A DNA stretch of 64,000 nucleotides from Escherichia coli. Lineage in GTDB: Bacteria > Pseudomonadota > Gammaproteobacteria > Enterobacterales > Enterobacteriaceae. Each line of letters opens with the position of its first letter. The stretch's first letter is position 1. Below, piece by piece: positions 27,801-30,800 of the stretch. A program made the position numbers. The stretch is from the NCBI RefSeq assembly GCF_003334305.1, contig NZ_QOWS01000002.1, one strand, 5' to 3'.

Positions 27801-30800
27801 GAGGCAGCGGAGCTTACACGTTAAATGGGATAGAGATTATCAGCGTTGAGGGGGAATCAAATGGGGAATTTATTAAGGATTCGAGGATTTTCGCCGGTGC
27901 CTACGAATATTCATTAACCCGAGGTAATACCGAAGCGACCAATAAAAACTGGTATCTGACTAACTTCCAGGCAACGAGCGGCGGTGAAACAAACTCCGGA
28001 GGAAGTTCAGCGCCTACTGTTGCGCCTACCCCCGTCCTGCGCCTCGAAGCTGGAAGTTACGTCGCCAACCTGGCAGCCGCTAACACTCTTTTTGTTATGC
28101 GTCTGAACGGTCGTGCGGGTGAAATGCGCTACATCGATCCTGTAACTGAACAGGAGCGTTCAAGCCGACTTTGGCTACGTCAAATTGGCGGGCATAATGC
28201 CTGGCGTGACAGCAACGGACAGTTGAGAACGACCTCGCATCGCTACGTCTCGCAGTTAGGGGCCGATCTGTTAACCGGTGGTTTTACCGACAGTGACAGT
28301 TGGCGTTTGGGAGTGATGGCTGGTTATGCCCGCGACTACAACTCAACTCATTCTAGCGTGTCGGATTATCGTTCGAAAGGGAGTGTCAGAGGCTATTGCG
28401 CAGGGCTGTATGCCACCTGGTTTGCCGATGACATCAGTAAAAAAGGCGCATACATTGACGCCTGGGCGCAATATAGCTGGTTTAAAAACTCGGTGAAAGG
28501 GGATGAATTAGCCTATGAATCCTATAGTGCGAAAGGCGCAACCGTCTCGCTGGAAGCGGGTTACGGCTTTGCCCTGAATAAATCCTTTGGTCTGGAAGCG
28601 GCGAAATACACGTGGATATTCCAGCCACAGGCACAGGCTATCTGGATGGGCGTCGATCATAATGCGCACACCGAAGCCAATGGCTCACGTATTGAGAATG
28701 ACGCAAATAACAACATCCAGACCCGACTTGGTTTCCGCACCTTTATTCGTACTCAGGAGAAAAACAGCGGTTCGCACGGTGACGACTTTGAACCTTTTGT
28801 TGAAATGAACTGGATCCATAACAGTAAAGATTTTGCTGTCTCAATGAACGGTGTGAAAGTCGAACAAGATGGGGCGAGTAATTTGGGGGAAATTAAACTT
28901 GGCGTAAATGGCAACCTGAATCCAGCGGCCAGCGTCTGGGGGAATGTGGGCGTGCAGCTGGGTGATAATGGCTACAATGACACCGCAGTGATGGTGGGCC
29001 TGAAATATAAGTTCTGATCCCGCCGTTAGCTAAAAAACCGCGTCGTATTCATCGACGCGGTACATATGAAATATTATTTTTTGCCGATAGCACGCATGGT
29101 GTCATCAATTGCCGTGATCAACAGCATTTGCGGGTCTTTAGCGCAAACCTGATTCAGTTTTTCTACCACTTTGGCGCTCAGTTCCGGAGATTGCTCAATT
29201 TTTAAATCACGGCTGGCAACGCTGGCATTACCCATTACCGCAACAATTTCTGCAACCTGTGCGCTGTCAGTTTTTGCCATTTCGTTGGCTTCTGCGCAAG
29301 TAATATAGGTTTCTGACGGCAAACCGTTTTTAATATTGTAGTCCTGCGCCCAGGTCATTGGTGCGAAAACAAACAGGCCCGCCAGTAAAGCAAATTTTTT
29401 CATCATCATTCCTTATTTCATTTTACCCAGAATTGCACCACCCGTACCGCCAATCACGGCACCTTTAATCGCCCCTTCGAGGCCATTGCCGGTCAGAACG
29501 CCAGTGACAGCACCAACGGCGGCACCCACTTTTGCACCTTTACGCGCATTTTTACCGTCGCGGCCTTTTTCTGTTACTGCACCAACACCAGCGCCAACAG
29601 CTGCACCTTTCAGTACGCCATTAACACCATTGCCAGTAAGTAAACCAACGCCTGCGCCTAGCAATGCACCTTTCGTGGTGCGGTTCATATCCGCCATCGC
29701 TGGCGTGGAGCAGAACAATGCTGAGATAAGCCCGAAGGCAAGTATTTTTTTCTTCAACTTAGATGTCCGGTATTAAGTAAGTTGCACACACAATAATTTC
29801 GTCTTCAATTAAGATCTGCTTAACTAAAGAACGCTCGCTATTATTCAGATAATTCAAAATGAGCGTGGCTGTGATGATAGGAATTATGTTTTTTACGTGA
29901 ATGAGAATAATCTTAAATGAGGAATAACTCATTGATTGACAATATTTTTATTCAAGAAGTGTCATTGACTGTTAACGCAATGTTGTAAAGGTAAGATAAT
30001 CTGATTTATCAATATTATTGTGTGATTTTTATGTGAGCAGAAGATATTCATCAGCAACGATTACATTAGTCATTTTATTTTGCCGACGGCCTCATTGTCG
30101 AAAGATAAGCGTACGACAGTATTATCTGAAAAGAGTGATTTTTTATCCAACTACACTTCAGCGCACTGCGTGTAAAAAATGCCTCTTTCTTATGCGGGAT
30201 ATCATCATTTCATCATGATGTCTTTGGTGAGCGGTGAACACAATACACCTGCGCTGTCTCTTCAGGATGAATCCCCTGGTCTGGTGCCTGCGGGCTGATG
30301 TTGCAGCAGAGCTTAGGTCACTTAGACGCTACTATCATTTATCCAATGGCATGGAATCGAAATCAGTCGATACCCGCAGTATATATCGTGAACTGGGTGC
30401 AACGCTGAGTTACAACATGCGTCTGGGGAACGGTATGGAAATTGAACCCTGCCTGAAGGCGGCTGTGCGCAAAGAATTTGTCGATGATAATCGGGTGAAA
30501 GTGAATAGTGACGGTAATTTTGTCAATGATTTGTCGGGCAGACGTGGAATATACCAGGCAGGTATTAAAGCCTCATTCAGCAGTACGTTAAGCGGGCATT
30601 TCGGGGTGGGGTATAGCCATGGTGCCGGTGTGGAGTCCCCGTGGAACGCGGTGGCTGGTGTGAACTGGTCGTTCTGACCATCAACGATTAAACTGCGCTT
30701 CGGCGCAGTTTTCGTTTACAGGGGGCTAAAAGGGAAAATTCTGGGGCAAAAAAAGCCCGCCAGTTACGGCGGGAAACCTCATCCTATGGGAGAACAATGA

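What the first reader, a model, noticed from the sequence alone, without database searches (positions are those of the whole stretch)
30234..30677. Orphan autotransporter beta-barrel fragment (ycgI) next to the ymgD-ymgG pair
The 147-aa ORF ends with a canonical autotransporter C-terminus (...GVGYSHGAGVESPWNAVAGVNWSF) but has no signal peptide or passenger domain. Together with frameshifted ycgH 1.2 kb upstream and intact ycgV 30 kb downstream, this makes three autotransporter loci in one window, two of them decayed. The missing 5' part of ycgI coincides with the position of the small secreted/Gly-zipper genes ymgD and ymgG, suggesting replacement or deletion.
Basis: partly seen in the sequence, partly recalled or inferred. 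Interest (0 to 1): 0.3.

Follow-up and report, generated by a model that had tools for sequence, protein, structure and literature searches.

The report
Leftover tail of deleted adhesin gene
The ORF is the dead 3' end (ycgI) of an E. coli surface-adhesin gene that lost its first 3 kb in one old deletion; this is an ordinary pseudogene that genome annotation already flags.

Summary
The 147-aa ORF at 30234-30677 is real and ends in a genuine autotransporter C-terminus. Only codons 34-147 (30333-30677) derive from an autotransporter. Codons 1-33 read through what used to be the gene's 5' upstream DNA.

Other E. coli genomes (strains 98210, SW4848, F2_81) carry an intact 1,105-1,132-aa YpjA/EhaD-type autotransporter at this exact position, between ymgJ and minE. 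In those genomes ymgD, ymgG and ymgI are all present as well. Against strain 98210, the window has one clean 3,083-bp deletion with 1 nt of microhomology. It removed the ribosome-binding site, start codon, signal peptide, passenger, linker helix and barrel strands 1-7, leaving 5 of 12 strands.

The same junction occurs in 4,548 of 5,426 complete E. coli genomes. About 438 records keep a full-length gene. The remnant decays further elsewhere:
- Independent frameshifts in K-12 and in CFT073/A42.
- Total loss in M1/5.
- A separate IS1203 truncation in O157:H7.

The fragment is a close paralog of ypjA (96% nt) and is not derived from ycgH or ycgV (25-26% aa).

Verdict: a known, non-functional pseudogene. 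Low interest.

The parts
30333..30677 (+). ycgI remnant proper. It holds the last 114 codons plus the stop (codons 1019-1132) of a YpjA/EhaD-type autotransporter, covering barrel strands 8-12 and the C-terminal ...NWSF signal.
   Evidence: Collinear with L003 19417-19761 in the native reading frame. TIGR01414 positions 319-432/432 and PF03797 152-254/255. The AlphaFold2 model of the intact barrel puts the junction at the end of strand 7 of 12. PGAP annotates the same span as 'incomplete; missing N-terminus'.
30234..30332 (+). Accidental 5' extension of the ORF (codons 1-33). This is former upstream non-coding DNA of the lost gene, with no autotransporter homology, no signal peptide and no convincing Shine-Dalgarno sequence.
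   Evidence: Matches L003 16234-16333, which lies upstream of the intact gene's ATG at 16363. Hydropathy and start-context checks.
30332..30333 (.). Deletion junction. 3,083 bp are missing relative to strain 98210 (L003 16334-19416) and 3,071 bp relative to SW4848, with 1 nt (T) of microhomology.
   Evidence: The same junction is spanned in 4,548 of 5,426 complete E. coli genomes.
29975..30332 (+). Retained upstream part of the autotransporter module. It includes annotated ymgJ (30033-30218) and a 39-codon ORF (30179-30298), and is paralogous to the region upstream of ypjA.
   Evidence: 89% nt identity to K-12 ypjA upstream, L005 6841-7199. Annotations; translations.
30688..30716 (+). Hairpin just after the remnant's stop codon (AAACTGCGC-TTCG-GCGCAGTTT) followed by a weak T tract. 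It is the likely former transcription terminator of the autotransporter gene.
   Evidence: RNA fold of 30678-30725 gives -19 kcal/mol. The consensus terminator scan did not call it. This part is inferred.
26370..29017 (+). Frameshifted autotransporter at the ycgH position (ECIAI39_1904-family allele). A 1-nt deletion after 26546 splits it into a 69-aa signal-peptide ORF and a 773-aa ORF.
   Evidence: Alignment to the intact 883-aa allele in L009. ORFs; family hits.
59872..62739 (-). ycgV, an uninterrupted 955-aa autotransporter ORF.
   Evidence: ORF. TIGR01414 match 513-955 to positions 2-432/432.
29074..29932 (-). ymgD (29074-29409), ymgG (29413-29757) and ymgI (29759-29932). These are neighbouring genes and are not part of the deletion event.
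   Evidence: They are present and identical in order next to the intact autotransporter in L003/L004. Window ORFs.

Best explanation
ycgI in this window is a non-functional pseudogene. It is the 3'-terminal 345 nt of a roughly 3.4-kb AIDA-I-type (YpjA/EhaD-like) autotransporter adhesin gene that once sat, and in a minority of E. coli still sits, between ymgJ and minE.

A single illegitimate-recombination deletion of about 3.08 kb, with 1 nt of microhomology, ran from 30 nt upstream of the start codon to codon 1018. It removed the ribosome-binding site, start codon, Sec signal peptide, the beta-helical passenger with its AIDA repeats, the (Pro-Asn)n spacer, the linker helix and barrel strands 1-7.

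The retained 114 codons happen to be in frame with a stop-free stretch of the old upstream DNA. A six-frame ORF caller therefore reports a 147-aa ORF from a GTG.

Any product would lack an export signal and would have 5 of 12 strands, so it could not reach the periplasm or form a barrel.

Shown here: the homology, the junction, the intact allele at the same locus, the population frequency and the further decay in other lineages. Inferred: non-expression and lack of function.
For: - Intact 1,132-, 1,128- and 1,104-aa genes lie between ymgJ and minE in strains 98210, SW4848 and F2_81.
- The junction maps to window 30332/30333 = L003 16333 | 19417, in the native frame.
- Domain matches cover only the last ~40% of the barrel models. 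The AlphaFold2 model of the intact translocator (pLDDT 72, pTM 0.67) shows a linker helix plus 12 strands, with the junction at the end of strand 7. The alignment to the solved BrkA translocator 3QQ2 places the fragment at chain residues ~171-284 of 284.
- The intact gene's AGAGGA Shine-Dalgarno sequence and ATG are deleted. The remaining candidate starts have poor contexts.
- The same junction is in 4,548 of 5,426 genomes. About 438 records carry the deleted 3,083-bp segment, about 90% of the gene, at >=95% identity. Spot checks place a 97% hit at this locus and a 92% hit at the ypjA locus.
- Further decay occurs elsewhere. K-12 has a 1-nt deletion near 30442. CFT073 and A42 have a different 1-nt deletion near 30348, and A42 has a second one. 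M1/5 has lost 30023-30993 altogether. O157:H7 carries an independent 753-nt remnant cut by IS1203.
- PGAP marks it 'incomplete; missing N-terminus'. The literature calls ycgI a pseudogene (PMC6206680), and modelling of YcgI gave a broken barrel (PMC7383365).
Against: - The reading frame of the remnant is open in this window and in many genomes.
- Pairwise pN/pS among frame-intact alleles is 0.04-0.43 rather than ~1. Counts are tiny (1-10 changes). Much of that variation may predate the deletion or come from recombination with intact alleles or ypjA.
- No expression data were examined, so transcription from the retained upstream region cannot be excluded.
Confidence: 0.95

Rival explanations
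1. The fragment is a beta-domain segment duplicated from the neighbouring ycgH (or ycgV) autotransporter, and no full gene ever existed here.
For: Three autotransporter loci lie within 36 kb of each other.
Against: BLASTP of the fragment against the window's ycgH product finds nothing significant; the best E-value is 0.19 over 23 residues. The beta-domains of ycgH and ycgV are 25-26% identical to the ancestral barrel, against 95% for YpjA. Intact genes exist at this exact locus.
Confidence: 0.01
2. The 5' part of the autotransporter was replaced by insertion of the ymgD-ymgG(-ymgI) genes.
For: These small genes lie immediately upstream, on the opposite strand.
Against: ymgD, ymgG, ymgI and ymgJ sit in the same order and spacing upstream of the intact gene in L003/L004. 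The window is collinear with L003 up to 30 nt before the lost ATG. No foreign DNA is present at the junction.
Confidence: 0.01
3. The remnant is retained because it does something. It might make a small cytoplasmic product carrying a beta-signal. Alternatively, together with the retained upstream homology, it might act as a recombination partner that exchanges sequence with ypjA or lets a full-length adhesin allele be restored.
For: The ORF is open in this window, and the exact 147-aa product is called on >=1000 contigs. Both flanks of the junction are 89-96% identical to the ypjA locus. SNP patterns among remnant, intact and ypjA alleles look mosaic. pN/pS is below 1.
Against: There is no Shine-Dalgarno sequence and no signal peptide. 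At least three independent frameshifts and one complete loss occur in natural lineages. Mosaicism is equally explained by ordinary between-strain recombination at this locus. No functional data exist.
Confidence: 0.03

Closest known systems
ycgI pseudogene of E. coli K-12 (annotated autotransporter C-terminal fragment)
   Same: Same locus, same deletion junction and same flanking genes. The two share 97.8% nt identity over 29900-30900.
   Different: The K-12 copy carries an extra 1-nt deletion near window 30442, so PGAP marks it 'frameshifted'. The window's copy keeps the frame to the native stop, and it has a Trp-to-Cys change (TGG to TGC, at 30450-30452) seen only in the window allele and the identical strain Br_190 among the 12 copies compared.
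Intact autotransporter at the ymgJ-minE locus in strains 98210, SW4848 and F2_81 (PGAP: 'adhesin-like autotransporter YpjA/EhaD')
   Same: Orthologous position. The remnant is 96% nt identical to its last 345 nt, and the upstream DNA is 98-99% identical.
   Different: The intact gene is full length at 1,104-1,132 aa. It has a signal peptide, AIDA-type repeats, a (Pro-Asn)n spacer and a full TIGR01414 barrel. The window lacks the first 1,018 codons.
YpjA/EhaD (K-12 b2647), an AIDA-I-type biofilm-associated autotransporter
   Same: Close paralog. It is 96% nt identical over the remnant and 95% aa identical over the barrel. Paralogy extends ~360 nt upstream and stops 10 nt after the stop codon, corresponding to window 29975-30687. 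YpjA is reported to be associated with biofilm formation (PMC9289746).
   Different: It sits at a different locus (the ileY / CP4-57 region, next to ypjF-yfjZ). Its gene is longer at 4,581 nt, and it is only 86-87% identical across the upstream region and the first ~0.9 kb of the gene (L003 15975-17289).
O157:H7 remnant at the same locus
   Same: It is also a 3' fragment of the same gene next to minE, 96% identical over the shared 345 nt.
   Different: It is longer at 753 nt. It is truncated by IS1203 with unrelated DNA upstream, so it represents an independent inactivation event.

Membership tests
Classical (type Va) autotransporter, functional member | N-terminal Sec signal peptide | tested here: not met
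   The ORF N-terminus MNTIHLRCLFRMNPLVWCLRADVAAELRSLRRY has no hydrophobic core; the maximum 11-residue Kyte-Doolittle mean is 1.36. This stretch derives from former non-coding DNA. SignalP was not available.
Classical (type Va) autotransporter, functional member | Passenger domain (beta-helix / AIDA repeats) | tested here: not met
   No passenger-type family or repeat hits in the 147-aa ORF. The intact homolog hits Ag43, AIDA-I and TIGR04415 repeat models.
Classical (type Va) autotransporter, functional member | Linker alpha-helix plus a complete 12-strand beta-barrel (PF03797 / TIGR01414 full length) | tested here: not met
   Only PF03797 positions 152-254/255 and TIGR01414 positions 319-432/432 are present. 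In the AlphaFold2 model, the helix and strands 1-7 lie upstream of the junction and 5 strands remain.
Classical (type Va) autotransporter, functional member | C-terminal beta-signal ending in an aromatic residue | tested here: met
   The product ends ...AGVNWSF, aligned to the last position of both profiles and to the BrkA C-terminus ...YRYSF.
YpjA/EhaD-type autotransporter lineage (homology only) | High sequence identity to ypjA and to the intact gene at this locus | tested here: met
   96% nt identity to K-12 ypjA and to intact alleles over 345 nt. The barrel is 95% aa identical.
Pseudogene (gene remnant) | Truncated relative to intact orthologs at the same chromosomal position | tested here: met
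Pseudogene (gene remnant) | Loss of translation-initiation signals | tested here: met
   The native AGAGGA-N8-ATG lies inside the deleted segment. Contexts of the remaining GTG and ATG starts are poor.
Pseudogene (gene remnant) | Further independent disabling mutations in other lineages | tested here: met
   Frameshifts in K-12, CFT073 and A42; complete loss in M1/5.
Pseudogene (gene remnant) | Relaxed selection (dN/dS near 1) | tested here: inconclusive
   pN/pS is 0.04-0.43, but from only 1-10 substitutions per class, and it is confounded by pre-deletion polymorphism and recombination.
Pseudogene (gene remnant) | No transcript or protein product | not testable with these tools
   No expression data are available here.

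The most novel reading that the evidence does not exclude
The remnant and the retained upstream homology might persist in most E. coli as a recombination 'landing pad' paralogous to ypjA. That would allow gene conversion to shuffle barrel or 5'-region sequence between the two loci, or to restore a full-length adhesin at the minE locus. Under this reading the ~8% 'intact' alleles would be partly regenerated rather than ancestral.
Probability: 0.05. Interest if true: 0.3.

Novelty: already known. Interest (0 to 1): 0.08.

Why it matters
It matters little beyond annotation hygiene.

- It shows that ORF callers and some databases, which list the 147-aa product as an 'autotransporter beta-barrel domain-containing protein', are naming a dead gene tail.
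- It pins the exact lesion and shows that an intact adhesin allele still segregates at this locus in roughly 8% of complete E. coli genomes. That could matter for adhesin typing tools, which may score that gene as ypjA/EhaD.
- The locus gives a tidy natural series of gene decay: intact, then deletion, then frameshift, then complete loss, plus a separate IS truncation.

Tried and rejected
- pN/pS among nine frame-intact copies. There are too few substitutions and the result is confounded by recombination, so it was not used as evidence either way.
- Rfam scan of 28500-32500 at E<=0.1. No RNA family was found.
- Sigma-70 promoter and terminator consensus scan of 29750-31100. Promoter-like sites were not above shuffles (5 vs 2.9 +/- 1.8), so no promoter was assigned. 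The hairpin after the stop codon was not called by the scan, although it folds at -19 kcal/mol.
- Alignment of the window's ycgH to the 98210 ycgH allele. These are different passenger allele families (929 differing columns), so this was useless for locating the frameshift. It was redone against an ECIAI39_1904-family allele.
- Counting intact alleles with a left-junction query. The count was confounded because the ypjA upstream region is paralogous. The identity bands plus spot checks were used instead.
- The 39-codon upstream ORF as a conserved leader peptide. All 5 differences from the ypjA-locus copy are non-synonymous, so there is no support for a conserved peptide.
- M1/5 as an 'empty site'. 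This was rejected because its deletion (30023-30993) starts inside the paralogous module and ends beyond it.
- A cross-species scan (genome contigs) was deliberately not run. The question was already answered within E. coli and the cost was not justified.

Full report
**Observation.** The window is E. coli chromosome with the gene order ycgH - ymgD - ymgG - ymgI - ymgJ - ycgI - minE - minD - minC.
- The ORF 30234..30677 (+, GTG start, 147 aa) exists and ends ...GVGYSHGAGVESPWNAVAGVNWSF.
- Pfam PF03797 matches residues 34-125 to model positions 152-254/255 (E=2.9e-10).
- NCBIfam TIGR01414 matches residues 34-147 to positions 319-432/432 (E=9.6e-22).

**What the neighbours show.** A megablast of 29000-31400 against 5,426 complete E. 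coli genomes revealed a sharp breakpoint at window 30333.
- In strains 98210 and SW4848, the left half and the right half of the query are separated by an intact gene of 3,399 and 3,387 nt. PGAP names it 'adhesin-like autotransporter YpjA/EhaD'. It lies between ymgJ and minE.
- Strain F2_81 has the same gene (3,315 nt) with an IS903B just upstream.
- In all three, ymgI, ymgJ and a 39-codon ORF are present upstream exactly as in the window. The wider 98210 and SW4848 regions also show ymgD and ymgG there.
- The 1,132-aa protein of 98210 has a signal peptide (MNRISRYYFHRSVLSLLIAAMIYAPPGMTA), AIDA/Ag43-type repeats, a long (Pro-Asn)n spacer and a full TIGR01414 barrel at residues 663-1132.

**The lesion.**
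- Window 29900-30333 aligns to L003 15900-16333 at 99.3% identity. Window 30333-30899 aligns to L003 19417-19984 at 94.7%.
- The junction reads GACGCTACT|ATCATTTATCC, with only a single T shared by the two ends.
- The missing segment is L003 16334-19416, or 3,083 bp. It is 3,071 bp relative to SW4848, whose spacer repeat is shorter.
- It starts 30 nt upstream of the ATG and so removes the AGAGGA Shine-Dalgarno sequence. It ends after codon 1018.
- Window 30333 is the first base of codon 1019 in the native frame. The 33 codons upstream are old 5' flanking DNA that happens to lack a stop in that frame.

**How much of the barrel is left.**
- An AlphaFold2 model of the intact translocator (residues 801-1132; pLDDT 72, pTM 0.67) shows a linker helix and 12 strands. 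The junction falls in the last residues of strand 7, so strands 8-12 remain.
- The alignment to the solved BrkA translocator 3QQ2 places the fragment at residues ~171-284 of 284.
- The ORF's N-terminus has no signal-peptide-like hydrophobic core.
- A product, if made, could neither be exported nor form a barrel. This last step is inference from how type Va autotransporters are known to work.

**Population picture.**
- A 240-nt probe centred on the junction is spanned in one piece in 4,548 of 5,426 genomes (84%). These include K-12, CFT073 and B1-type strains.
- The deleted 3,083 bp are found at >=95% identity in about 438 records. Spot checks show that a 97% hit is at the minE locus and that a 92% hit is the paralog ypjA at its own locus.
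- O157:H7 has a different state: a 753-nt remnant cut by IS1203, with unrelated DNA upstream.
- Strain M1/5 has lost window 30023-30993 entirely.
- Among remnants, K-12 has a 1-nt deletion near 30442. CFT073 and A42 share a different 1-nt deletion near 30348, and A42 has a further one. Intact genes and ypjA have none.
- These independent disabling events are the best evidence that the remnant is not under selection for coding.
- pN/pS (0.04-0.43) is uninformative with so few changes.

**Origin.**
- The fragment does not come from ycgH or ycgV. BLASTP finds no significant alignment to the window's ycgH product, and the barrels are 25-26% identical.
- It is a close paralog of ypjA (b2647): 96% nt over the remnant and 95% aa over the barrel.
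- The paralogous block runs from window 29975, in the ymgI-ymgJ spacer, to 30687, 10 nt past the stop.
- Both ends of that block flank the junction in the window. A whole module therefore once lay here.

**Side claims.**
- The autotransporter at the ycgH position (26370-29017) is an ECIAI39_1904-family allele. It has a 1-nt deletion after 26546 that separates a 69-aa signal-peptide ORF from a 773-aa ORF.
- ycgV (59872-62739, minus strand) is an uninterrupted 955-aa ORF with a full-length TIGR01414 barrel match.

**Comparison with what is known.**
- PGAP already annotates this span as an incomplete autotransporter pseudogene.
- The exact 147-aa product is in public databases on >=1000 contigs.
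- A UTI89 study calls the ycgI homolog a pseudogene (PMC6206680).
- An outer-membrane-protein review notes that YcgI modelled as a broken barrel (PMC7383365).
- YpjA-type proteins are grouped with biofilm-forming AIDA-I-type adhesins (PMC9289746).
- No papers on the intact allele at this locus turned up in three searches (ycgI, YpjA/EhaD and ycgH/ycgV/ypjA terms).

**Verdict.** This is a real but ordinary feature: a known pseudogene remnant created by one old 3.08-kb deletion. 'Replacement by ymgD/ymgG' and 'copy of ycgH' are both excluded. Interest is low. The only mildly new points are the exact junction, the ~8% of genomes that keep the full gene, and the decay series.

Noticed in passing
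window 30179-30298 (+): A 39-codon ORF ([39 protein letters not shown]), annotated by PGAP as a hypothetical protein, sits just upstream of both the ycgI-locus autotransporter and ypjA. The two copies differ at 5 of 120 nt, and all 5 changes are non-synonymous. The stretch looks conserved as DNA or 5' leader rather than as a peptide.
   Followed up: partly
window 29975-30687: The autotransporter gene plus ~360 nt upstream forms a block paralogous to the ypjA locus. There it abuts a recombinase (pin-like) remnant and the ypjF-yfjZ toxin-antitoxin region. This suggests that the adhesin module was duplicated or moved as a unit. The ymgJ ORF (30033-30218) lies inside this block but is not conserved as an ORF at the ypjA locus.
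   Followed up: partly
window 26370-29017: The gene at the ycgH position exists in at least two very divergent passenger allele families: the K-12 / 98210 'YcgH' type and the 'ECIAI39_1904 family' type. They differ in 929 of 2,833 alignment columns. The window's allele carries a 1-nt frameshift, and every hit listed at >=99% identity is annotated as the same two ORFs.
   Followed up: partly
L001 2109-3322 (strain Br_190_kylling); L016 475-1443 (strain F2_81); L002 10338-11551 (O157:H7 SS17): IS elements repeatedly hit this 5-kb neighbourhood. An IS3-family element lies inside ycgH in a strain otherwise identical to the window. IS903B lies just upstream of the intact autotransporter in F2_81. 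IS1203 truncates the autotransporter in O157:H7.
   Followed up: no
window 30688-31048: The 360-nt spacer between the remnant and minE contains several terminator-like hairpins on the minus strand (30773-30756, 31024-30997) and short ORFs that some annotations call hypothetical proteins (UTI89 C1358). M1/5 lacks most of it with no obvious consequence. There is no Rfam match.
   Followed up: no
window 30450-30452: The window's remnant has TGC (Cys) where all other compared copies, both intact and remnant, have TGG (Trp) in the conserved EPW motif of the barrel. This change is specific to the window allele and its identical relative, and is consistent with relaxed constraint.
   Followed up: no
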